Below, piece by piece: positions 4,346 to 63,141 of a stretch of DNA of 64,000 bases. The position numbers were made by a program, and so were the translations under genes. The notes beneath the pieces are model-generated. The model had not been told where the DNA came from, made no database searches, and saw nothing but the letters and a program-made list of their open reading frames with translations. The DNA comes from Stegostoma tigrinum (taxonomy: Eukaryota), in assembly GCF_030684315.1 (NCBI RefSeq), contig NC_081391.1, forward strand, positions 22,900,629 to 22,964,628, in the 5' to 3' direction. Numbering within the stretch: the first letter of the stretch is position 1; each line of letters opens with the position of its first letter.

Positions 4346-5404
4346 GCCTCACCCCAAATTCTCATGGTTAAAGGGTACGGGAAGAGAGTGAGAACAGGAG
4401 ACTGATCAGCCGCAATGATATTAAATGGTGGAGCAGGCTCAAAGGGCTGAATGGCCTATTTTCCATGTTGCTATGTCTGATTTCATAGAGGACTCCTGCA
4501 GGTCACTCACTGAGATCCATCAGTGCCAGCCTCACAGTTGCTTCAAGGAAGAGGTACTTCTTTAAATATTAAAGACGGATATCTGCTTTTTTAATCCTCA
4601 AAGCTGGAAACCAAAGAGCCTCAGTCAGAATAAATATGCCAACATAGCCCGTCGCTGCCCTTAAACACCCAAAGGGCAATTGAAAGAGAGGCTTCCACAC
4701 TGTTTCCATCTGAAACATGGCCCTGAATATATTAAATCATGTGGGGAGGCTTAAGCAATAGGTGAAGGATTAGTAAGGCCTTATGGCCCATTGGGTCCAT
4801 ACTGGCTAATGGATCCCGTGCAAACTTCCTGAATTGGGAACACAGGTTTAAAAAATTGGGTGTGCCAATGGACTTTTCCAATCGAACTTGGCATTTTAAA
4901 ATCCTTGTCCACTGGAAGATGGACAGACTGACCCAACGGCCAGTTCTGAGGTAGATTTATCATCAGTCTGATCAACATCACCCTCGCACCCCACGCTCCC
5001 CCCAACCCAACTTAAACACTGACTCCACATCGTTACCTCAATGTTGACAGCATGTGTTCATTTAAAATGTCAAAGCAGGGTCTGAGGGTGAAGGAGGGGA
5101 GGACTGTAGATATGTTGAGCATTAACCCGTGAGTACAGTTAAGGCACTGTAACAAGACCATAAACAGCAAAAGGAATCGATCCGAACGTCCCACAACTCC
5201 AGCTGCACATAGTCAAACAGTATATTATTTCAGTTTTCACCATCCAACTGCGGTCAATGCCTTTCTTTAATTGTCACAAAAGAGCTCCACTTGAGATAAA
5301 TATATTGACGAGCCAGCTACTTCCTAATTTGTGTATTGCAAAACCAACAGGCAAAAATGCTTTTTAAAAATCTCACTTACACCAAACTTCTATATGAATC
5401 TTAC

Positions 5405-16103: not shown

Positions 16104-16497
16104 TTAGATACGGAGTAAATCTCCTTTTGCACTGTCTCTATCAAACACTCCCAGGACAGGGACAGCAAGGGGTTAAAGGCAGAGTAAAGCTCCCTCTACT
16201 CTGTCCCCATCAAACACTCCCAGGACAGGGACAGCAAGGGGTTAAAGACAGAGTAAAGCTCTCTCTACACTGTCCCCATCAAACCCTCCCAGGACAGGGA
16301 CAGCAAGGGGTTAAAGACAGAGTAAAGCTCTCTCTACACTGTCCCCATCAAACCCTCCCAGGACAGGGACAGCAAGGGGTTAAAGACAGAGTAAAGCTCT
16401 CTCTACACTGTCCCCATCAAACACTCCCAGGCCAGGGACAGGGACAGCATGGGGTTAGATACAAAGTAAAGCTCTCTCTACACCGTTCTCCCAAACA
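16104..16497 (+). repeat. 63-bp minisatellite, about 6 copies
   Basis: Unit approximately acactgtccccatcaaacactcccaggacagggacagcaaggggttaaagacagagtaaagctctctct; produces the 21-aa periodic ORF at 16028-16501. Confidence 0.92.
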
Positions 16498-21111: not shown

Positions 21112-22626
21112 GAGATAATGGGAACTGCAGATGCTGGAGAATTCCAAGATAATAAAATGTGAGGCTGGATGAACACAGCAGGCCAAGCAGCATCTCAGGA
21201 GCACAAAAGCTGACGTTTCGGGCCTAGACCCTTCATCAGAGAGGGGGATGGGGTGAGGGAACTGGAATAAATAGGGAGAGAGGGGGAGGCGGACCGAAGA
21301 TGGAGAGTAAAGAAGATAGGTGGGGAGGTAGGGAGGGGATAGGTCAGTCCAGGGAAGACGGACAGGTCAAGGAGGTGGGATGAGGTTAGTAGGTAGCTGG
21401 GGGTGCGGCTTGGGGTGGGAGGAAGGGATGGGTGAGAGGAAGAACCGGTTAGGGAGGCAGAGACAGGTTGGACTGGTTTTGGGATGCAGTGGGTGGGGGG
21501 GAAGATCTGGGCTGGTTGTGTGGTGCAGTGGGGGGAGGGGACGAACTGGGCTGGTTTAGGGATGCAGTAGGGGAAGGGGAGATTTTGAAACTGGTGAAGT
21601 CCACATTGATACCATATGGCTGCAGGGTTCCCAGGCGGAATATGAGTTGCTGTTCCTGCACCCTTTGGGTAGCATCATTGTGGCACTGCAGGAGGCCCAT
21701 GATGGACATGTCATCTAGGGAATGGGAGGGGGAGTGGAAATGGTTTGCGACTGGGAGGTGCAGTTGTTTGTTATGTACACCTGTTTGTAATGCTACACCT
21801 GTCCCCACACCTCCTCCCTCACCCCCATCCCAGGCCCCAAGATGACATTCCACATTAAGCAGAGGTTCACCTGCACATCTGCCAATGTGGTATACTGCAT
21901 CCACTGTACCCGGTGCGGCTTCCTCTACATTGGGGAAACCAAGCGGAGGCTTGGGGACCGCTTTGCAGAACACCTCCGCTCAGTTCGCAACAAACAACTG
22001 CACCTCCCAGTCGCAAACCATTTCCACTCCCCCTCCCATTCTTTAGATGACATGTCCATCATGGGCCTCCTGCAGTGCCACAATGATGCCACCCAAAGGT
22101 TGCAGGAACAGCAACTCATATTCCGCCTGGGAACCCTGCAGCCATATGGTATCAATGTGGACTTCACCAGTTTCAAAATCTCCCCTTCCCCTACTGCATC
22201 CCTAAACCAGCCCAGTTCGTCCCCTCCCCCCACTGCACCACACAACCAGCCCAGCTCTTCCCCCCCCACCCACTGCATCCCAAAACCAGTCCAACCTGTC
22301 TCTGCCTCCCTAACCGGTTCTTCCTCTCACCCATCCCTTCCTCCCACCCCAAGCCGCACCCCCAGCTACCTACTAACCTCATCCCACCTCCTTGACCTGT
22401 CCGTCTTCCCTGGACTGACCTATCCCCTCCCTACCTCCCCACCTGTACTCTCTCCACCTATCTTCTTTACTCTCCATCTTCGGTCCGCCTCCCCCATCTC
22501 CCTATTTATTCCAGTTCCCTCTCCCCATCCCCCTCTCTGATGAAGGGTCTAGGCCCGAAACGTCAGCTTTTGTGCTCCTGAGATGCTGCTTGGCCTGCTG
22601 TGTTCATCCAGCCTCACATTTTATTA
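21112..22626. mobile_element. Young Neptune-type PLE: inverted minus copy plus a plus copy with the GIY-YIG end, nested in an older PLE tail
   Basis: VVYCIHCTRCGFLYIGETKRRL endonuclease motif; arms about 21150-21773 and 21990-22626 are near-perfect reverse complements; TSD tctcctctctaccta at 21097-21111 and 22627-22641. Confidence 0.93.
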
Positions 22627-23220
22627 TCTCCTCTCTACCTATCTTGTTTTCTCTCCATCTTCGGTCCGCCTCCCCCTCTCTCCCTATTTAGTCCAGTCCC
22701 CTCCCCCCATCCCCCTCTCTGATGAAGGGTCCAGGCCTGAAACGTCAGCTTTTGTGCTCCTGAGATGCTGCTTGGCCTGCTGTGTTCATCCAGCTCCACA
22801 CTTTGTGAGCTTGAAAGACTGTTCCCAGATTGACAGCGCCACCATGTGGTAGTGAGTCAGAGTGCTGGGAATATGGAAATAAGGACTAAGAGAGAGAAAA
22901 TGGGTTAGCTGTGCCAAATGTAACCCGTATCGTGTGATTATGTTGATGTGGAGGTGCCGGTGTTGATCTGGGGTGGACAAGGTCAGAATTCACACCTCAC
23001 CAGGTTACAGTCCATCAGGTTCATTTGGAAACACAAGCTTTCGGAGCCCTGCTCCTTAGTCGGGTGAGGTGGATTCACCTAATGAGGGAGCAGCACTCCG
23101 AAAGCTTAACAAACCTGTTGAACTATAACCTGGCATCATGTGACCTCTGACCTTGTGATAACGGGCCTAGGAGTATGTGGGAATGGGTGACTGTGCGAAA
23201 AGTGACCTGTATCATAACGG

Positions 23221-35860: not shown

Positions 35861-35896
35861 AGTGAGAGTGCCAGAAGGAACAGAGACATGGAAGAT

Positions 35897-38011
35897 AATA
35901 AAATGTGAGGCTGGATGAACACAGCAGGCCAAGCAGCATCTCAGTAGCACAAAAGCTGACGTTTCGGGCCTAGACCCTTCATCAGAGAGGGGGATGGGGG
36001 GAGGGAACTGGAATAAATAGGGAGAGAGGGGGAGGCGGACCGAAGATGGAGAGTAAAGAAGATAGGTGGAGAGAGTGTAGGTGGGGAGATAGGGAGGGGA
36101 TAGGTCAGTCCAGGGAAGACAGACAGGTCAAGGAGGTGGGATGAGGTTAGTAGGTAGCTGGGGGTGCGGCTTGGGGTGGGAGGAAGGGATGGGTGAGAGG
36201 AAGAACCGGTTAGGGAGGCAGAGATAGGCTTCTTCCTGTCCCGCAGGCCCGACCAGGCCCCCTCCACCGACACTCTCATCCGCCTAGCTGAACTCGTCCT
36301 CACACTCAACAACTTCTCTTTTGACTCCTCCCACTTCCTACAGACTAAGGGGGTGGCCATGGGCACCCGCATGGGCCCCAGCTATGCCTGCCTCTTTGTA
36401 GGTTACGTGGAACAGTCCCTCTTCCGCACCTACACAGGCCCCAAACCCCACCTCTTCCTCCGGTACATTGATGACTGTATCGGCGCCGCCTCTTGCTCCC
36501 CAGAGGAGCTCGACCAGTTCATCCACTTCACCAACACCTTCCACCCCAACCTTCAGTTCACCTGGGCCATCTCCAGCACATCCCTCACCTTCCTGGACCT
36601 CTCAGTCTCCATCTCAGGCAACCAGCTTGTAACTGATGTCCATTTCAAGCCCACCGACTCCCACAGCTACCTAGAATACACCTCCTCCCACCCACCCTCC
36701 TGCAAAAATTCCATCCCCTATTCCCAATTCCTCCGCCTCCGCCGCATCTGCTCCCACGATAAGACATTCCACTCCCGCACATCCCAGATGTCCAAGTTAT
36801 TTAAGGACCGCAACTTCCCCCCCACAGTGATCGAGAACGCCCTTGACCGCGTCTCCCGCATTTCCCGCGACACATCCCTCACACCCCCCCCCCGCCACAA
36901 CCGCCCCAAGAGGATCCCCCTCGTTCTCACACACCACCCTACCAACCTCCGGATACAACGCATTATCCTCCGACACTTCCGCCATTTACAATCCGACCCC
37001 ACCACCCAAGACATTTTTCCATCCCCTCCCCTGTCTGCTTTCCGGAGAGACCACTCTCTCCGTGACTCCCTTGTTCGCTCCACACTGCCCTCCAACCCCA
37101 CCACACCCGGCACCTTCCCCTGCAACCGCAGGAAGTGCTACACTTGTCCCCACACCTCCTCCCTCACCCCCATCCCAGGCCCCAAGATGACATTCCACAT
37201 TAAGCAGAGGTTCACCTGCATATCTGCCAATGTGGTATACTGCATCCACTGTACCCGGTGCGGCTTCCTCTACATTGGGGAAACCAAGCGGAGGCTTGGG
37301 GACCGCTTTGCAGAACACCTCCGCTCAGTTCGCAACAAACAACTGCACCTCCCAGTTGCAAACCATTTCCACTCCCCCTCCCATTCTCTTGATGACATGT
37401 CCATCATGGGCCTCCTGCACTGCCACAATGATGCCACCCGAAGGTTGCAGGAACAGCAACTCATATTCCGCCTGGGAACCCTGCAGCCATATGGTATCAA
37501 TGTGGACTTCACCAGTTTCAAAATCTCCCCTTCCCCCACTGCATCCCTAAACCAGCCCAGTTCATCCCCTCCCCCCACTGCACCACACAACCAGCCCAGC
37601 TCTTCCCCCCCACCCACTGCATCCCAAAACCAGTCCAACCTGTCTCTGCCTCCCTAACCGGTTCTTCCTCTCACCCATCCCTTCCTCCCACCCCAAGCCG
37701 CACCCCCATCTACCTACTAACCTCATCCCACCTCCTTGACCTGTCCGTCTTCCCTGGACTGACCTATCCCCTCCTTACCTCCTCACCTATACTCTCCTCC
37801 CCACCTATCTTCTTTTCTCTCCATCTTCGGTCCGCCCCCCCCCTCTCTCCCTATTTATTCCAGAACCCTCCCCCCATCCCCCTCTCTGATGAAGGGTCTA
37901 GGCCCGAAACGTCAGCTTTTGTGCTCCTGAGATGCTGCTTGGCCTGCTGTGTTCATCCAGCCTCACATTTTATTATCTTGGATTCTCCAGCATCTGCAGT
38001 TCCCATTATCT
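35897..38011 (+). mobile_element. Young 5'-truncated Neptune-type PLE with an inverted tail on the left and a 16-bp TSD
   Basis: Minus tail 35897 to about 36225, then plus body; cagagacatggaagat at 35881-35896 and 38012-38027. Confidence 0.95.
36230..37657 (+). CDS. PLE reverse transcriptase C-terminal half plus GIY-YIG endonuclease (5'-truncated, uninterrupted frame)
   Basis: GVAMGTRMGPSYACLFVG, RYIDD, FLDL, Cys linker CNRRKCYTC and VVYCIHCTRCGFLYIGET...RFAEH. Frame is open from the junction to the stop. Confidence 0.88.
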   Translation, partial: FFLSRRPDQAPSTDTLIRLAELVLTLNNFSFDSSHFLQTKGVAMGTRMGPSYACLFVGYVEQSLFRTYTGPKPHLFLRYIDDCIGAASCSPEELDQFIHFTNTFHPNLQFTWAISSTSLTFLDLSVSISGNQLVTDVHFKPTDSHSYLEYTSSHPPSCKNSIPYSQFLRLRRICSHDKTFHSRTSQMSKLFKDRNFPPTVIENALDRVSRISRDTSLTPPPRHNRPKRIPLVLTHHPTNLRIQRIILRHFRHLQSDPTTQDIFPSPPLSAFRRDHSLRDSLVRSTLPSNPTTPGTFPCNRRKCYTCPHTSSLTPIPGPKMTFHIKQRFTCISANVVYCIHCTRCGFLYIGETKRRLGDRFAEHLRSVRNKQLHLPVANHFHSPSHSLDDMSIMGLLHCHNDATRRLQEQQLIFRLGTLQPYGINVDFTSFKISPSPTASLNQPSSSPPPTAPHNQPSSSPPPTASQNQSNLSLPP

Positions 38012-39737
38012 CAGAGACATGGAAGATCCTGCTTTGTGTTGATAAAAAGAATTTGGACGTAGATATTTTCTTAATCAACCTGTTCATCTCTGCAGCAAAT
38101 GGGACTAGAACGCAGGCCTCCTGGCTCAGAGGGAGGGACACAATCACTGTATTGTGAGAGTGCTACAAATTTGTACATGTGTTCTACTCCTTTAAAAAAG
38201 GTGTGTTTTGGAGACAGCCATCGGCTGCTGCATCTCCGTGGCAACATCCTGACCAATTAGACCAGGCAGGTTGATTCTGAGAATCAGGATTGACAGGTAA
38301 CCATTCTCGCTGCATCCCTACGATGAAACAGCCAACTGACACTCTTCTCATGCTGTGTGAAGTGGGTGTTCCTCTTTTGTTTAAGTCTGTTTCTTGCATC
38401 CTAGATCTGACGAGTTCAAGATGAAAAGCTTCGTCTTTTTGGTCTCCTTTCAGCAATGTTTAAGTACCATACTACCGAGCAATTATTCACATTTGGGATT
38501 CCAAAAGGCATTCAATAAGGTACCACATGTAAGGCTAGTTAATCAGATAAGAGCCCATTGGGTATTGGAGGCAGTACAATAGCATGCAAAGAGCATTGGC
38601 TAACTAATAGAAACAGAGATTGGGATAAGGGGGGCTATTTTCAGGAAGGCGACCTGTTATGAATGGAGTGCCACAGTGATCAGTGATGGGTTCACAATTA
38701 TTTACAATATATTAATGACTTGGATGAGTGAAGTTAATGTACTGTAGTCAAATTTGCAGATGGTACGGAAATTGATTCCCTTCGAAGTCATATACCATCC
38801 TGGCTCGACACTACATCACCATCCCTTCACAATCACTGGGTCCCTTGCTGTCAGCACTGGCTGTCACTGCCCCATGAAGACGGCATTGATTCAAGGTAGC
38901 TCACAGGTACTTCCTCAAGGGTAATTAGGGATGGTCAATAAATGCTGGCCTTGCTAATTATACTCACATTTCAGGCCTCGGAAGACTTGGCTGGGAGGCT
39001 GCCCGAGAATACAAAGGTGCAGCAGAAAATGGCTCTTGTAGAAAAGCGGTCATGCCCCTACCTCTGGGTCAGGAGGCTGAGTTCAAGTCCTACTTTCTTC
39101 AGGAATGTGTTGTAGCATACCTGCACAGGTTCATTTTAAGGTTGAGGAGAAGCCACCGCAGTCTCAGCAAATTGTAGGGCTTTTCCTCTCATTAGAGGAA
39201 TAACAGGTGGCAAGTTTATCCTGTGGGTCACACCTCAGGCAAGCAGCAAGGTTGAGAATAATGGACCTTCATGGTCACCTCAGCCAGTGTAGGAATTGAA
39301 CCTATACTGTTGATGTCACTCTGCATTGCAAACTGAGATTTTACTTTATATTAAAACATTCATGAAGAGTTAATACATTCATTCCATTTGAACATTCTAT
39401 TCAAAAGTTTCTATAACTAACTATTAACTGAATTATATCCTCTAACATCTAAATCCTTTAATTCTCTCCGGCACACTCCCATTTACCTGGTACAAAGCGA
39501 TCCTTGCAGTTTCTTTATTCCCCATCTTTAAAACAATATAAAAATCCATCTCTAGTAATTTTGAATCAGAAACTCCACCAGTTAATCAGGCACAGTAACA
39601 CCAGATCCCCTTAAATCGATCCTCTGGTTTTCCCCATCAGTTTCATCTCCGCTGTTTGTCATCAGTATCCCCTTCTCCTTCCCCTTGCATTGGATGCTCC
39701 GATAGGTTGCTGTTTCCAAAGGATGGACAAATGACGG

Positions 39738-54636: not shown

Positions 54637-57026
54637 CTAAGACCTTCAAAATTGACCTTGTCCCAATTTAGAGCTTTAACTCATGGACCAGACCAATCCT
54701 TTTCCAAGGCTACTTTACTTGAATTATGCTCACTAGTCCCGAAGTGCTCCCCCACTAACATGTCCATCACTCGCCCTGCCTTATTTCCCACATTTTTCCC
54801 CTTCTCGAGTAGGGCCTTTTACATACTGCATGAGAAATTCTACCCTGGACACACTTAACAAATTTCTCTCCATCCAAACCTTTAATAGTGTGACAGTCCC
54901 AGTCGATGTTTGGAAAGTTAAAATCCCCTATTATTACAACCTTGTTGTTCTTTCAGCTATCTGCAACCTCCTTCCATATCGGCAGCTCAATCCCCTGCTG
55001 TGGCTGCTGGGAGGTGGTGCTATTGTCCAGTGCTTTTACAGTGATCTCTCCCTTTTTATTTTTTAGTTCGACACATATAGGCTCAGTGGACGGACCCTTA
55101 AGCATATCTTCTCTCAGTATTGCCGGGATGTTCTCCCTAATTGAAAACATAACCCCTTACTTTCTACCCTTCCTTTAGCATCTGTGCCCTGGAACAATGA
55201 GCTGCCAGTCCTGTCCCTCTCTCAGCCGTGTTTCTGTAATAGCTATAATATCCCAGTTCCATGTTCCTATCCACACTGTGAGTTCATCTGTCTCACCTGT
55301 CAGGCCCCTTGCATTGAAACAAGTCCAGTTTAACCCTTTAAACTCCTCCCCCACTCTCAACACATCCCCACAATCACACAGCACTTCCTGCTGCAACAGC
55401 CCAAGGTGTAACAGCTGCCCATTCACCTCCTTCCGCCCAAATATCCAAGGCCCCCGACATACCTTCCTGGTGAAGCAGCACTTTGCACATTCTAGCCCAC
55501 TGTTTCCACGACTGTAACTCCTGTCAATGTGGTCTCCCTCTACATTGGGGAGACAGAGTGCAGACTGGGTAATACTCTGTTCACAAAACAAAAGACCCTG
55601 AGCTTCCAGTTGCTTGCCACTTTAACACTCCACCCTGTTCCCTGGCCAAAACATCTCTCAGGCTTGCTTGCAGTGCTCCAGCAAAGCTAGCACAGGCTGG
55701 AAAGAACAACATTTCCTTTTCTGCTTGGGGATCCTGCAATGTTCAATCCTCTTGGGGCCTGAGCGCCTTCTCCCATGTCCTTACCCGGGGCCCACAAACC
55801 AGACCTTGTCATTACATGAGTCACTATTAGTACCAACTCTTGTCAGCCAGTAATGGCCCTCGTTAGCAGCTAACAATTCTCCCAGGGTGAACTTTACCAA
55901 CTTCTTTGTCTGACTGACTTTCTCCCTGAGCTCCATCTCCATATTTTATTTACTCCTCCACCCTCCCCACACATATACCAACCTTTTCCTAGCTCAGAAG
56001 AAGGGTTGCTGGACCTGATACATTAATTCTGCTTTCATTGCGCAGATGCTGCCAGACCTGTTGAGGTTTCTCCAGCAAATTCTGTTTTTGTTGTGGATAG
56101 GATTTTTCAATCTCAACCCATTGCAAATGTATCTACCAGAAAGCCAAGGATAGAGCTGGAGGTAATCTTCACATATTCTGTGAACATTGTCACACTGTAA
56201 ATGAGCAGAATTACCTTGTGAACTTTAGCTCACATCTATTATAAGCCCTCAGGTCAAAGATGAAACTGAGCGGACATATTTTAAGAAGTTTCCATTTTGG
56301 AACAAATGAGAATTATTTTCTGAGGATCGTTATTGTGTGGAATCCTCTGCCCCAGACATTAGTGGAGACCGGGTCTTTCAACTTTAGGCTGCTGTAGACA
56401 TATTTTTGAAGGTTGAGAGATTTGTGCGGTACAGCCAGGAAAGTGAAACTATTACCATGACCAGATCAGTCCTGGTCTTGTCGATTGGTGGAACAGGATT
56501 GAAGGGCTGAATGGCCAAATTCTGCTCCAACATCCTAACTTCCTTTGTACACAGTAGAAATAGACATCTTCTCATCCAAGTGAGTTTTTAACTCTCTCTC
56601 TCTCTCTCTCTTTGAGTGAATCCCCAGCACACTAGTGAATTTGAAGGGGACACAAAACTTTTACATTTCCTATCCCCTAGAGGATAGGAAGCTACTGTGA
56701 TTGTGTTTTTAGGTTATCCTCTGCATTAACCGTTGAACATTCCTGCTCAGGGAGAATTTGAAAACACAGATTATTTCTTCCAAGTAGCTCTGATAAGCAG
56801 CCATTTACTGAATGGGTTGCTTAGCAGTGTTCAATGAAAGTGTGACCCGGATCCTAAGCAATGCTTTTTCTCCCTGCTTTGGTTTTATCACTTGTCTGTG
56901 ATGGTGCAACTTTAAACCATTAGACAGCCCATTTGTAACCACATTTCAGAGAAAACGAGTGAGTGTGTAAAAACTGCAGCTCATGTTGTTTGTGTGACAG
57001 CAGCTCCAATAAAAAGCAGCAGCTAG

Positions 57027-58234
57027 ATTTTAACCTCACTGCGAAGCCTCTTCCAGGGATGCCTAACCTGAAGAAGTTACCCTCCTCCCTCCGGACCAAC
57101 CTCAGGGAATCTCTCTCCCATTGCAACTCTCTTGTACTCTCCATCTTCGGTCCGCCTCCCCCTCTCTCCCTATTTATTCCAGTTCCCTCCCCCCATCCCC
57201 CTCTCTGATGAAGGGTCTAGGCCCGAAACGTCAGCTTTTGTGCTCCTGAGATGCTGCTTGGCCTGCTGTGTTCATCCAGCCTCACATTTTATTATCTTGG
57301 AATCTCCAGCATCTGCAGTTCCCATTATCTCTGATACTATTTTAACCTCACTGCGAAGCCTCTTCCAGGGATGCCTAACCTGAAGAAGTTACCCTCCTCC
57401 CTCCGGACCAACCTCAGGGAATCTCTCTCCCATTGCAACTCTCTTGTACTCTCCATCTTCGGTCCGCCTCCCCCTCTCTCCCTATTTATTCCAGTTCCCT
57501 CCCCCCATCCCCCTCTCTGATGAAGGGTCTAGGCCCGAAACGTCAGCTTTTGTGCTCCTGAGATGCTGCTTGGCCTGCTGTGTTCATCCAGCCTCACATT
57601 TTATTATCTTGGAATCTCCAGCATCTGCAGTTCCCATTATCTCTGATACTATTTTAACCTCACTGCGAAGCCTCTTCCAGGGATGCCTAACCTGAAGAAG
57701 TTACCCTCCTCCCTCCGGACCAACCTCAGGGAATCTCTCTCCCATTGCAACTCTCTTGTACTCTCCATCTTCGGTCCGCCTCCCCCTCTCTCCCTATTTA
57801 TTCCAGTTCCCTCCCCCCATCCCCCTCTCTGATGAAGGGTCTAGGCCCGAAACGTCAGCTTTTGTGCTCCTGAGATGCTGCTTGGCCTGCTGTGTTCATC
57901 CAGCCTCACATTTTATTATCTTGGAATCTCCAGCATCTGCAGTTCCCATTATCTCTGATACTATTTTAACCTCACTGCGAAGCCTCTTCCAGGGATGCCT
58001 AACCTGAAGAAGTTACCCTCCTCCCTCCGGACCAACCTCAGGGAATCTCTCTCCCATTGCAACTCTCTTGTACTCTCCATCTTCGGTCCGCCTCCCCCTC
58101 TCTCCCTATTTATTCCAGTTCCCTCCCCCCATCCCCCTCTCTGATGAAGGGTCTAGGCCCGAAACGTCAGCTTTTGTGCTCCTGAGATGCTGCTTGGCCT
58201 GCTGTGTTCATCCAGCCTCACATTTTATTATCTT
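57027..58234 (+). repeat. 312-bp tandem array (about 3.9 copies) of an internally deleted PLE derivative, one hammerhead per unit
   Basis: Identical 83-aa ORFs start at 57132, 57444 and 57756, and the same frame opens again at 58068; units look identical by eye. Confidence 0.96.
57203..57234 (+). ncRNA. Minimal type I hammerhead ribozyme motif (cores also start at 57517, 57829 and 58141, and occur in other young PLE tails)
   Basis: CUGAUGA, extra A, stem II GGGU/GCCC with CUAG loop, GAAA, C, GUC; predicted cleavage after 57232. Stem III is reduced to the palindrome ACGU and stem I is only about 2 bp. Confidence 0.7.
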
Positions 58235-60019
58235 AGATCACAGCGTGGCGCTTTTGGATCGAGCCTTCTCTGTGGTTGACTTGAGGGCTATTTATTTTCA
58301 ACGTCCTGACAGCTCCTCTGAAACTCTTCTCTTTGTGGAGTAACCAGATGGACCCGGTTCTGCTGAAGTCATCACAAGCCTCTAAAAACGATATACTTAG
58401 TCCGACCAGGGAAGGATAATTTTTTTGAAGGGTTTGCAAAGTCAGGAATCAGACGATGACAGGTTATAGTCCAAGAGGTTTATTTGAAAACACAAGCTTT
58501 CGGAGCCTAGCCCCTTTGTCAGGAGCAGGGTTTCAGAGAGAGACAGAGACTCTTGTTTCTGCTCTCTGCATATGACCCTTGAGGCAAAATGTCTGTTAGT
58601 GGTATAAATCAGTTCGTCTGAGGAATAATACCCTTCCCTTTTACTTTTGTCTTGGGCTGGAGTATACAACAGCAAAGCTCTTGGATTCAAGCTATCTACG
58701 GTGCAGAAGCAAGCCATTTGGCCCATCATGCTCATGCCAGCTCTTAGAAAGAACTAACACACTCGCTTGGACTCCTTCCCACTCGTCTCTGCACATTTTC
58801 TCCCTTTAAAGATATATCCAGTTCCCTTTACATTACATCTCCTTCTGAGTCTCTTACTCTGCTCGCTGTTATTTGTATCTTGCAGTTTATGACTGTATGC
58901 TAATTTCTGGGTGGACTATCAAGCCTCCTTCCTCAGTCCAAAGTTTGAAGCCTCTGCTGCTTGATTTTTGGGGTACTTTTTTCTAAATTCAGTCACAGAA
59001 TCTGGACATCACTGGCCAGGCAGCATTTATTGCCCATCCCTAATTGCCCAGGGGGCAGTTAAGAGTCAACCACATTGCCGTGGGTCTGGAGTCACATGTA
59101 GGCCAGACTAGGTAAGGAGGGCAGTTTCCTTCCCTAAAGGACATTAGTGACCCAGATGGGTTTTTCCAACAATTGACACCAGTTTCATGGTCATCATTAG
59201 TCTCCTAATTTTTAATGGAATCCGCCATCTGCCAGGGCAGAATTTGAACCCAGGGTACGGGTCATTACTGGGAGTTTCTGGATTAATAGTCTAGTGATAA
59301 TACTACGAGGCCGTCACGTTCTTGGGGACAAAATTCGCAAGGAGGCTGAGGATACAGGGTATGTCCTGAGGCAGAATGTGATCCGTGCACCAATCATGGA
59401 GTTGGAAGAGTGACATTGCAGAAATATTGATCCAAGGTTTTGAATTGGGCATAAATAACATGGGAGCCATGAGCTGTTTGCATCCCCAAGTGATGGACTT
59501 GGCAGAAATACAAAGCACACTTTATTAGGCAGTTGACAGTTACACAAGTGACATATCAGACAATACAACTGTATGAGGTAAGCCCAAAGTATGGGAAAGA
59601 GAAACTTCAGCTGTAAGTGGGGGGGGGAGGTGGGATTTAAAGGGACCTGAAACGTCAGCTTTCCTGCTCCTCTGATGCTGCTTGGCCTGCTGTGTTCATC
59701 CAGGTCTGCACCTTGTTATCTCAGATTCCAGCATCGGCAGTTCCTACTATCTCCGAAAGGCAGAGTAGTCATTTTTGGTTTGTTTGTTATTTATTGGTTT
59801 ACCCTTGGCCAGTTCCAGTTTTGTTCTGTTTCTCGTGATGATTTAAGTTCTTTTTAAGCAACCTTGACTAGTCTCAGAGCTGTGCACAGGGCCACTATCT
59901 ACGTTGCTCTAAGGACAAGGAGCCACCAGAAAAGATGCAGAGGGGATTTCAAAGGATCGTGTCAGAAACTGGAGATTCTAATGACCCAACTGGGCCCATT
60001 TCTCTAGAGCCGAGTGGGG

Positions 60020-61717: not shown

Positions 61718-62821
61718 TCATTGAGTCAAGTTAGACACTGTTGTTCGATTTCTCCCCTGGTACTCCAACTGGAGTGACTTCGCTGTGTTCGTTTGGGCAG
61801 CTGATCTCTTGGGCCCTTGACTGTCCATTTGGCCCCTCTTAAAGGTGACCCGCTCAGTTGATGTTCTGCTGTGGTGTGCCATATACTCCTTGTAGTTCTT
61901 GGTGAGTAACATGTAGAGGAATGGGTTGATACAGCTGTTACTGTAGGTCAGGCAGGTCACAAAGAAGTTGATGTACATCTGTGCCAGTGGTGTCATACTC
62001 AGAGCTTCTTGCTTATAAAGTTTTGTCAACTGCCAGACCCAAAATGGCAGAAAGCAGGCCCAGTACAACAAGATGATGCTAAAAATCATGTACAAGACCT
62101 TCTGCTTTAGAGTACGATTTCTATTGTCCGAAACCATTCTCCCCGAGAGCCAGTAAGCTAGTGCCAACCGGATGTACAGGTATCCAATTACAATGCCTGG
62201 AGATAAAATGCTGGTATTGAATAAAATGGTGAGATACGTTTTGTAGGCTTCAGGATTCCAAGTTGGGAAGCAAATCCGCTTTGTTGACCCTGTAGGGTTG
62301 ACGGTCTCTCGTAAATGGATCATAATCATCATCGGCAAGGTCAGGAGGCAGGATAATGACCAAATGGTGGCAGTGATTATCCTTCGGCACGTTCTGGTAG
62401 CCCGGCTGGCCAGGGGTGAGGTCACAGCCCTGTATCGTTCGACGCTCATGGCTGTGAGGATGAAAATGCTGGCGTGCATGGTCAGGAGGTCCAGGCTGAG
62501 GAGGAACCTGCAGCCGATCTCCCCAAAGTACCAGTCTTTGGCAAAATATGTGCACACCACGAAAGGGATGGTGAGCAAGTATAGGAGGTCGGCCAGTGCC
62601 AGGTTGGCGATGTAAATGTACATGGATCCAGCAGACTTGATTGATCGGTTGGCGATCACCAACGTGTAGATATTGCCCAGCATGCCAAAGATACACATGA
62701 TGGTTAGGATCACCCCGAGGAGTGTTGTAATCAGGACCTCATTCACGTTACCTTCATCTGGAAGCGAGGAATTGCTGGTCAAGTTTCCTTTTGTGAGTTG
62801 GCCATTGTCAACTCTGTCCAT
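61718..62821 (-). CDS. UTS2R: Urotensin-II receptor-family class A GPCR, 367 aa, single coding exon
   Basis: Seven hydrophobic segments; NLALADLLY, LDLLTMHASIFILTAMSVERY, CFLPFWVWQL and TCLTYSNSCINPFLY match UTS2R-family motifs. Which uts2r paralog it is cannot be determined. Confidence 0.92.
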   Translation of the reverse strand: MDRVDNGQLTKGNLTSNSSLPDEGNVNEVLITTLLGVILTIMCIFGMLGNIYTLVIANRSIKSAGSMYIYIANLALADLLYLLTIPFVVCTYFAKDWYFGEIGCRFLLSLDLLTMHASIFILTAMSVERYRAVTSPLASRATRTCRRIITATIWSLSCLLTLPMMIMIHLRETVNPTGSTKRICFPTWNPEAYKTYLTILFNTSILSPGIVIGYLYIRLALAYWLSGRMVSDNRNRTLKQKVLYMIFSIILLYWACFLPFWVWQLTKLYKQEALSMTPLAQMYINFFVTCLTYSNSCINPFLYMLLTKNYKEYMAHHSRTSTERVTFKRGQMDSQGPKRSAAQTNTAKSLQLEYQGRNRTTVSNLTQ

Positions 62822-63141
62822 TTTGCCCCTCTGTTTGCTGCCAGAGTTTTTAAGTTGTCTTCCTCTTCCTGCTATCCCTTTTCAGGCCACCTGGAAAAGA
62901 ACCCACAATATATTTCATTTCAATTAGTTCAATGTTTCATTGGTTATCTTTTCTTATGTGTATTTTTTTTTGTTTATTCTTTCATGAGATGTTGAATACT
63001 AGGCCAGCATTTATTGCCTATTCCCTTATTGTCCAGCGGGCATTAAAGGTCAACCCCATTGCTGTTGGCCTGGAGTCACATGTAGGCCTGCCCAGGAAAG
63101 GACAGCAGATTTCCTTCCTTAAGGAACATGAAATGAGTGAG

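What the first reader, a model, noticed from the sequence alone, without database searches (positions are those of the whole stretch)
57027..58234. Retrozyme-like array: 312-bp PLE-derived units, each with one hammerhead ribozyme
Seen: about 3.9 apparently identical head-to-tail copies. Each has about 200 bp of the young PLE tail (hammerhead cores at 57205, 57517, 57829, 58141) plus about 110 bp not found in other PLE copies here, which contains an ATG (57059, MPNLKKLPSSLRTNLRESLSHCNSL) that may be the element's ORF start. The array ends at the same short tail terminus as the dispersed insertions and is bracketed by tagat (57024-57028 and 58234-58238). Known: PLEs carry minimal hammerheads, and metazoan non-LTR retrozymes are tandem hammerhead repeats of a few hundred nt that yield circular RNAs. 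Inference: a single insertion made by repeated reverse transcription around a 312-nt circle from an internally deleted PLE, i.e. a newly formed non-autonomous retrozyme. A transcript could release three exact 312-nt monomers.
Basis: partly seen in the sequence, partly recalled or inferred. Interest (0 to 1): 0.85.

Follow-up and report, generated by a model that had tools for sequence, protein, structure and literature searches.

The report
Penelope element shedding hammerhead mini-arrays
The four 312-bp repeats are one of 41 insertions of a small parasite cut from an intact Penelope-like jumping gene that has spawned dozens of such mini-arrays, likely by repeatedly copying a short RNA, and insertion ends across the genome pile up at the ribozyme's predicted cut site, suggesting that it really cleaves in the germ line.

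Summary
Observation confirmed: 57027-58234 is 3.87 identical 312-bp units, each with a minimal hammerhead. It is not a one-off. The junction occurs 100 times at 41 loci, all with Penelope-like (PLE) insertion signatures: two fixed 3' ends, variable 5' ends, inverted arms and 11-17-bp duplications. The unit is a contiguous, 0-mismatch piece of the pLTR-ORF junction of an intact 1073-aa Neptune-like PLE. That PLE sheds such minis constantly: 56 of 80 sampled loci, 47 different junctions. Three other junctions tested are single-locus 4-9-mers, one without a hammerhead, so the ribozyme is not needed for arrays. Best model: the PLE reverse transcriptase repeatedly copies a short junction RNA, likely circular. 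Read-through multimers and DNA-level expansion remain live rivals. Separately, copies whose 5' edge lies exactly at the predicted hammerhead cut number 3,494, versus 261-693 at four control positions: an indirect footprint of cleavage in vivo, which the papers I read report as lacking. PLE-derived retrozymes are already proposed in print (2026 preprint). No RNA or cleavage was tested. The scan noted a ribozyme-free analogue in another genome.

The parts
57027..58234 (+). Tandem array: 3 full 312-bp units (57027, 57339, 57651) plus 272 bp (57963-58234); one insertion of the 312/313 mini-PLE family
   Evidence: 0 mismatches; family at 41 loci
57027..57136 (+). 32-nt leader plus first 78 nt of the parent PLE ORF (ATG 57059); repeated every 312 bp
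   Evidence: identical to L091:1338-1447, start of a 1073-aa RT + GIY-YIG ORF
57135..57136 (+). Novel junction joining parent position e110 to e3409, 2-nt microhomology; repeated at 57447, 57759, 58071
   Evidence: exact 34-mer found 100 times at 41 loci
57135..57338 (+). Parent 3' UTR / pseudo-LTR segment with the hammerhead and both RT start sites
   Evidence: 99.5% to L091 pLTR 1130-1337 and 3' end 4742-4943
57203..57234 (+). Minimal type I hammerhead: 2-bp helix I, core, unpaired A, 4-bp helix II, palindromic helix III stub; predicted cut 57232|57233
   Evidence: sequence; min-HHR features in PMC4209133; genome-wide 5'-edge peak at the cut
57515..57546 (+). Hammerhead of unit 2 (predicted cut 57544|57545)
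57827..57858 (+). Hammerhead of unit 3 (predicted cut 57856|57857)
58139..58170 (+). Hammerhead of unit 4 (predicted cut 58168|58169)
57294..57338 (+). 'Tail' between the two inferred RT start sites (about u272 and u306); the array's 3' end (58234) is the u272 site
   Evidence: 55 of 57 arm ends fall in u266-276 or u302-312; same arrangement shown in vitro for an anole PLE (PMC11167929)
57024..57028 (+). Left copy of possible 5-bp target duplication (overlaps the element by 2 nt)
   Evidence: chance level 0.093
58234..58238 (+). Right copy of possible 5-bp target duplication
35892..38018 (+). 5'-truncated copy of the same parent PLE (RT-thumb-EN part, 36228-38018) with an inverted arm (35892-36228); context, not part of the array
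   Evidence: 98% to L091; ORF 36197-37657

Best explanation
The array is one insertion of a 41-locus non-autonomous family whose 312-bp unit is an exact piece of the pseudo-LTR/ORF junction of an intact Penelope-like element, and its four copies were likely written in one event by that element's reverse transcriptase going repeatedly around a short, probably circular, RNA. Shown: the parentage, the dispersed family, and PLE-type ends (3' ends at two sites about 35 nt apart, variable 5' ends, inverted arms, target duplications). Inferred: (1) The parent protein binds RNA around the pLTR-ORF junction and starts cDNA internally at u272 and u306, one site per arm, on one template. (2) A junction-spanning RNA fragment whose ends are joined (ligation, or a precise end-to-end RT jump) becomes an endless template and gives a head-to-tail array; this has happened many times, with units of 208-1244 nt. 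(3) A few such arrays, this family among them, are transcribed and re-mobilised in trans. (4) The hammerhead cuts a minority of templates, about 5% of passes, leaving cDNAs that stop at the cut; in hammerhead-bearing arrays it could release monomers for re-circularisation, but it is not needed to make arrays.
For: Family and signatures: 100 junction copies at 41 loci; 55 of 57 arm 3' ends at two sites and 5' ends spread over the whole unit; 16 of 41 loci two-armed, 15 of these 16 with 11-17-bp duplications, microhomology included; 14 of 16 pair one short with one long end, none uses the same site twice; in a second set of two-armed copies 26 of 31 mixed, 1 same-site, 4 unclear. Parent: intact 1073-aa ORF with RT and GIY-YIG hits below Pfam cut-offs; unit = L091:1134-1445 with 0 mismatches. 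Repeated birth: 56 of 80 ORF-start loci are minis with 47 junction classes (loci from the first 100 of 2,412 rows). Born as multimers: 3 of 3 other junctions tested occur at a single locus as 4, 4 and 9 copies; variants fixed in every unit, inverted arm included, with 0-1 other differences in L033, L045, L054; both arms share the junction in 14 of 14 informative family loci; arm lengths not distinguishable from ordinary copies (median 509 vs 628 bp, n=55 and 31, p=0.15). Cleavage footprint: 5' edges at u207 3,494 vs u202 261, u208 693, u209 495, u234 456; 29 of 30 inspected rows are true junctions; symmetric joins about 20 per 100 rows at u207 vs 6 and 4 per 100 rows at two control palindromes, about 700 vs 16-18 extrapolated.
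Against: No RNA evidence of any kind. Older arrays (L038, L043, L067) and all three single-locus arrays (L073, L081, L161) carry variants shared by subsets of units, which points to DNA-level duplication or conversion after insertion, so some copy number is not RT-made. In L073 one arm is ordinary PLE and the other a mini, so two templates can be used. In vitro the anole PLE uses unprocessed RNA, hammerhead mutants still insert, and no RNA-seq reads ended at the cut (PMC11167929). The lone motif prefers an inactive fold (-11.4 vs -3.1 kcal/mol) and the 312-nt circle is no more structured than shuffles (z=+0.6). About 60 of the first 100 u207 rows are symmetric joins whose exact break is ambiguous between u207 and u211, and 11 more have 3-nt microhomology; the unambiguous remainder (about 1,000) is only 1.4-4 times the controls. 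Only four control positions were counted genome-wide. No arm of the 312 family itself ends exactly at u207 (0 of 57; nearest 204, 208, 210).
Confidence: 0.6

Rival explanations
1. Linear read-through model: an existing array is transcribed as one long uncut RNA and the PLE protein starts internally at any unit's tail, so new insertions are multimers copied from a multimer; no circle is involved.
For: This is the scenario proposed for the anole PLE. About 59,000 copies read through the hammerhead against about 3,500 that stop there. Long arrays of up to 10 units exist in the family. Seamless junctions are expected.
Against: It cannot create the first multimer. Three junctions exist only as one multimer, with no source array in the assembly. 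Arrays with their own fixed variants (L033, L045, L054) have no matching source among the 41 loci, although sources could be lost, polymorphic or missed by an exact 34-mer.
Confidence: 0.2
2. DNA-level expansion: the PLE inserts a 1-2-unit mini, and unequal crossing-over or slippage between its direct repeats later builds the array.
For: Variants shared by subsets of units in L038, L039, L043, L062, L067, L073, L081 and L161. The 2026 preprint favours local amplification after insertion. Many of the 41 loci hold only one junction.
Against: The youngest arrays (window, L044, L057, L033 with 8 units) have no internal differences, leaving little time for several crossovers; multi-unit arms in both orientations inside one target duplication share the same variants.
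Confidence: 0.17
3. Assembly artefact: a single unit was multiplied by the assembler.
For: Units are 100% identical; short-read contigs cannot span the array.
Against: 41 loci with different unit numbers, internal variants, inverted arms and target duplications; the head-to-tail join is natural parent sequence.
Confidence: 0.03

Closest known systems
Metazoan non-LTR retrozymes (Cervera and de la Pena 2020, PMC7229834; Li, Clavereau, Pollet 2026, bioRxiv 10.64898/2026.07.22.740005)
   Same: Non-coding tandem units of about 300 bp, one type I hammerhead per unit, dispersed multimers, related to PLE pseudo-LTRs; the preprint reports them in one chondrichthyan (mean 363 bp).
   Different: Here the hammerhead is the parent's unchanged minimal motif, not a canonical one; the unit keeps the PLE ORF start and is 100% identical to an intact parent; the circle is not predicted to be self-paired; circular RNA and cleavage are untested; sister arrays form without a hammerhead.
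EN+ Penelope-like elements, Neptune-type (CX2-5CxxC linker before GIY-YIG; Craig et al. 2021, PMC8557442) and anole Poseidon PAc (Frangieh et al. 2024, PMC11167929)
   Same: Partial tandems, inverted 5' arm, 30-40-bp tail at one end, two internal RT start sites near the pLTR-ORF junction, minimal hammerhead upstream of them.
   Different: The 312 unit encodes no protein. In PAc the hammerhead overlaps the start codon and the start sites lie in the ORF; here both lie upstream of the ATG. PAc RNA-seq showed no ends at the cut, whereas genomic copies here pile up at it. Clade is assigned by motif only, no tree.
Non-autonomous Chlamys PLEs such as MRC1 of Chlamydomonas (PMC8557442, passage)
   Same: Non-autonomous PLE derivatives with multicopy head-to-tail insertions.
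   Different: Those belong to a clade that mostly lacks hammerheads and resemble the parent mainly at the 3' end; here the whole unit is a junction fragment of the parent.

Membership tests
non-LTR retrozyme | tandem repeats of about 150-450 bp with a type I hammerhead in each of at least two consecutive units | tested here: met
   312-bp units, 4 hammerheads; motif MFE -11.4 kcal/mol passes the preprint's -5 filter, although in an inactive fold
non-LTR retrozyme | non-coding, no LTR/PBS/PPT, dispersed with larger target duplications | tested here: met
   only 26 codons of parent ORF; 41 loci; 11-17-bp duplications in 15 of 16 two-armed loci; the window's own 5-bp match is weak. PBS and PPT were not searched for.
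non-LTR retrozyme (Cervera 2020 sense) | canonical type I hammerhead (helix I about 6 bp, loop-loop contact) | tested here: not met
   2-bp helix I, minimal PLE type; no Rfam hit
non-LTR retrozyme (Cervera 2020 sense) | highly self-paired circular monomer, GC below 50% | tested here: not met
   circular MFE -52.6 vs shuffles -55.3 +/- 4.2, 44% paired, GC 51.6%
non-LTR retrozyme | self-cleavage of the transcript | tested here: inconclusive
   indirect genomic peak at the cut for the parent family; no biochemical test; 0 of 57 family arms end there
non-LTR retrozyme | accumulation of circular and linear monomer RNA | not testable with these tools
   needs RNase R and denaturing northern blots
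non-autonomous PLE derivative | sequence derived from an autonomous PLE present in the same genome | tested here: met
   0 of 312 mismatches to intact L091 element
non-autonomous PLE derivative | PLE insertion signature: 5' truncation, inverted arm, tail at one end, partial tandem | tested here: met
   signature as described
Neptune-clade PLE (parent) | RT followed by CX2-5CxxC linker and C-terminal GIY-YIG endonuclease | tested here: met
   RVT_1 E 4.7e-5 and GIY-YIG E 5.8e-4, both under Pfam cut-off; C-x4-C-x2-C before the GIY-YIG read; motif rule (also present in Nematis)
Neptune-clade PLE (parent) | RT phylogenetic placement | not tested
   no reference set or tree was built

The most novel reading that the evidence does not exclude
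This genome records retrozymes being born: an active PLE keeps turning short RNA fragments from its pLTR-ORF junction into rolling templates, producing on the order of a thousand mini-arrays with different junctions, of which a few (this 312-nt family) spread as hammerhead-processed circles; the pile-up of paired cDNA ends at the GUC cut is in vivo evidence that a minimal PLE hammerhead cleaves and that both RT subunits copy one RNA from two start sites.
Probability: 0.4. Interest if true: 0.8.

Novelty: new variant of a known kind. Interest (0 to 1): 0.63.

Why it matters
[quoted passage not shown] This locus gives a parent and a parasite that are 100% identical over the unit, 41 insertions to compare, dozens of independent births including a hammerhead-less control array, and a countable genomic footprint at the cut. 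That makes circle versus read-through, and the role of the ribozyme, directly testable with one protein and one 312-nt RNA. The general idea that retrozymes derive from PLE pseudo-LTRs is already in print, which limits the novelty.

Tried and rejected
Rfam at gathering and E-value thresholds: no hit. Sequencing runs: no RNA holder listed. Contigs of four runs laid on the locus could not span the array or show an empty allele; one contig of run X1 matches the left flank and 28 nt of the array, short of the 31 needed, and that run may be the assembly's source. PDB sequence search with the parent RT-EN part: no match. A first look at 5' ends among bystander copies showed no clear peak (1 at u207). 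A stricter recount gave 3 of 34 true edges at u207 over 61 positions (loci selected by the u207 pattern, L096 and L161 left out); an apparent peak at u224 was an older subfamily variant and was rejected. RT stalling at the predicted misfolded hairpin (3' edge u208) was considered: it predicts an excess at u209, which is at baseline (495 vs 456), so it is disfavoured but not excluded for the symmetric joins. A transcription start at u207 would give the same footprint and is not excluded. One marker pattern (T164) was mis-specified and gave no counts; it was ignored. 'Newly formed at this locus' was rejected. 'Hammerhead required for tandem formation' was rejected.

Full report
Observation. The array is as described: period-312 identity from 57027 to 58234, three full units and 272 bp, no mismatches, with hammerhead cores at 57205, 57517, 57829 and 58141. 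I number the unit u1-u312 from 57027. The motif is a minimal type I hammerhead: 2-bp helix I, an unpaired A before a 4-bp helix II, and a palindromic stub for helix III, with the predicted cut after u206. Rfam does not score it. The unpaired base is described for PLE min-HHRs, and a 2-bp helix I for D. virilis Penelope (PMC4209133, passages). The 'tagat' bracket is present but near chance (0.093).

Parent. The window lies in G000 (3.2 Gb, 835 contigs); 'shark-like' is my recalled impression and was not tested. A 40-mer from the unit's first 110 bp occurs 2,412 times and the hammerhead 41-mer 58,991 times. Locus L091 holds an intact element: inverted arm 623-1119, pseudo-LTR 1120-1337, ATG 1370, a 1073-aa ORF to 4588 and a 3' end at 4943. 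It has weak RT and GIY-YIG hits, both under Pfam cut-off, and a C-x4-C-x2-C linker, which marks Neptune/Nematis rather than Poseidon (PMC8557442, passages). The rotated unit equals L091:1134-1445 with 0 mismatches. So the unit is one contiguous piece across the pLTR-ORF junction whose ends (e110 and e3409, 2-nt microhomology) have been joined.

Family. The junction 34-mer occurs 100 times at 41 loci on 24 contigs; I fetched all 40 loci outside the window. Of 57 arms, 27 end at u266-276, 28 at u302-312 and 2 elsewhere, while 5' ends are spread over the unit. Sixteen loci have an inverted arm; 15 of these have 11-17-bp duplications, microhomology included. In 14 of 16, one arm uses the short and the other the long end; none uses the same site twice. 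In a second set of two-armed copies, 26 of 31 were mixed, 1 same-site and 4 unclear. [quoted passage not shown] Mobilisation by the parent's machinery is therefore well supported (about 0.95).

Repeated birth. From the first 100 of the 2,412 ORF-start rows I examined 80 loci: 56 minis, 22 long copies, 2 unclassified. The 56 fall in 47 junction classes, with units of 238-1244 bp (median 334); five classes recur at 2-5 loci. I tested three other junctions genome-wide: 293 bp (4 copies), 362 bp (4 copies) and 208 bp (9 copies), each at one locus only. The 208-bp unit lacks the hammerhead core and helix II yet forms a 9-mer with a target duplication. The ribozyme is thus not needed to make arrays, in line with multicopy non-autonomous elements of the mostly hammerhead-less Chlamys clade.

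How the copies arise. For copying at the RNA stage: single-locus multimers; variants fixed in all units, including the inverted arm, in L033, L045 and L054; no internal differences in the window, L044, L057 and the 8 units of L033; the same junction in both arms in 14 of 14 informative family loci and in 9 other minis, with one exception, L073; arm lengths like those of ordinary copies (p=0.15, n=55 and 31). Against: variants shared by subsets of units in L038, L039, L043, L062, L067 and in all three single-locus arrays show DNA-level turnover; source arrays may be missing from a haploid assembly; the anole protein works on uncut RNA. A circle and repeated exact end-to-end jumps cannot be told apart from DNA. 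I give reiterated copying 0.6, linear read-through 0.2, DNA expansion 0.17 and artefact 0.03.

Does the hammerhead cut? I counted copies whose 25 exact bases from a given position are preceded by two non-reference letters: u207, the first base after the cut, 3,494; u202 261, 9 of them the 208-bp array; u208 693; u209 495; u234 456. Of the first 30 u207 rows, 29 are true junctions and one is a 2-nt deletion. They include joins to flank, to the other arm, and to the ORF start (L156, L157). Forty of the first 100 rows are 20 symmetric joins through the 4-nt palindrome at the cut, against 6 and 4 pairs per 100 rows at the two control palindromes, roughly 700 against 16-18. Both arms ending at one base is what a shared template with a physical end predicts. 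Caveats: about 60 of 100 rows are symmetric-type and 11 more have 3-nt microhomology, so their break may lie at u207-211; the remaining 29 or so per 100 (about 1,000) exceed the controls by only 1.4-4 times; a transcription start or an RT stall could mimic the peak; a small bystander sample gave 3 of 34 edges at u207; none of the family's 57 arms ends there. Most templates are read through (about 59,000), so they are uncut or re-ligated. The lone motif is predicted to misfold (-11.4 vs -3.1 kcal/mol) and the circle is not unusually structured (z=+0.6), so activity would need a dimer or protein help, as shown for the anole ribozyme.

What is known. Non-LTR retrozymes are tandem 150-450-bp hammerhead repeats expressed as circles, with PLEs proposed as movers (PMC7229834, parts 2-4 of 6). 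A circular PLE intermediate was proposed in 2014. A 2026 preprint (parts 1-3 of 5; supplements not available) links vertebrate retrozymes to pseudo-LTRs by co-occurrence and phylogeny, includes one chondrichthyan, and found cleavage in 1 of 9 dimers. By its operational definition this array is a retrozyme; by the stricter 2020 description it lacks the canonical ribozyme and the self-paired circle. PMC6155905 was seen as passages. Seven searches of the held library (listings and abstract starts) showed no report of insertion ends piling up at a PLE hammerhead cut or of serial birth of junction minis from one parent; subscription journals are mostly not covered. Scan notes on other genomes describe a ribozyme-free tandem parasite with PLE-type ends and an ordinary hammerhead pair; I read them after finding the hammerhead-less array and did not check them. 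No notes exist for this genome.

Verdict. The circle is the most likely template but is unproven, and the hammerhead seems active but dispensable. New variant of a known kind; interest 0.63.

Noticed in passing
L161 (G000:C2:58041500-58046500), minus strand: Nine-copy array of a 208-bp mini that lacks the hammerhead core, with a target duplication; junction unique in the genome.
   Followed up: yes
L091:623-4943 (G000:C1:132142500-132150000): Intact Neptune-like PLE with a 1073-aa ORF, 5' pseudo-LTR and inverted arm; 3612-bp monomer; likely close to the active parent.
   Followed up: yes
L096/L156, L157, L163: Minis whose junction joins the ORF start directly to the first base after the predicted hammerhead cut; in L163 both arms end at that base.
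   Followed up: partly
L043, L038, L067: Variants recur with 2- or 3-unit periodicity inside older arrays (for example units 1, 4, 7 in L043): DNA turnover or multimeric templates.
   Followed up: partly
L073 (G000:C1:49656000-49661000): One arm is 910 bp of ordinary PLE and the other a four-junction 362-bp mini array, so one insertion used two different templates.
   Followed up: partly
window 61718-62881 (-): Intronless-looking rhodopsin-family GPCR ORF (7tm_1, E 4.9e-47); urotensin II receptor-like by recall; its 3' end is about 3.5 kb from the array.
   Followed up: no
window 2094, 9047, 15061, 23305, 29364: Hammerhead-like motifs of other, older PLE families with different helix I pairs, suggesting covariation of the short helix.
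   Followed up: no
window 16130-16483: Five-copy 69-bp tandem repeat, 93% identical.
   Followed up: no
window 22450-22816: A PLE 3' end followed by a second, more diverged 182-bp tail copy with its own hammerhead (22537, 22719).
   Followed up: no
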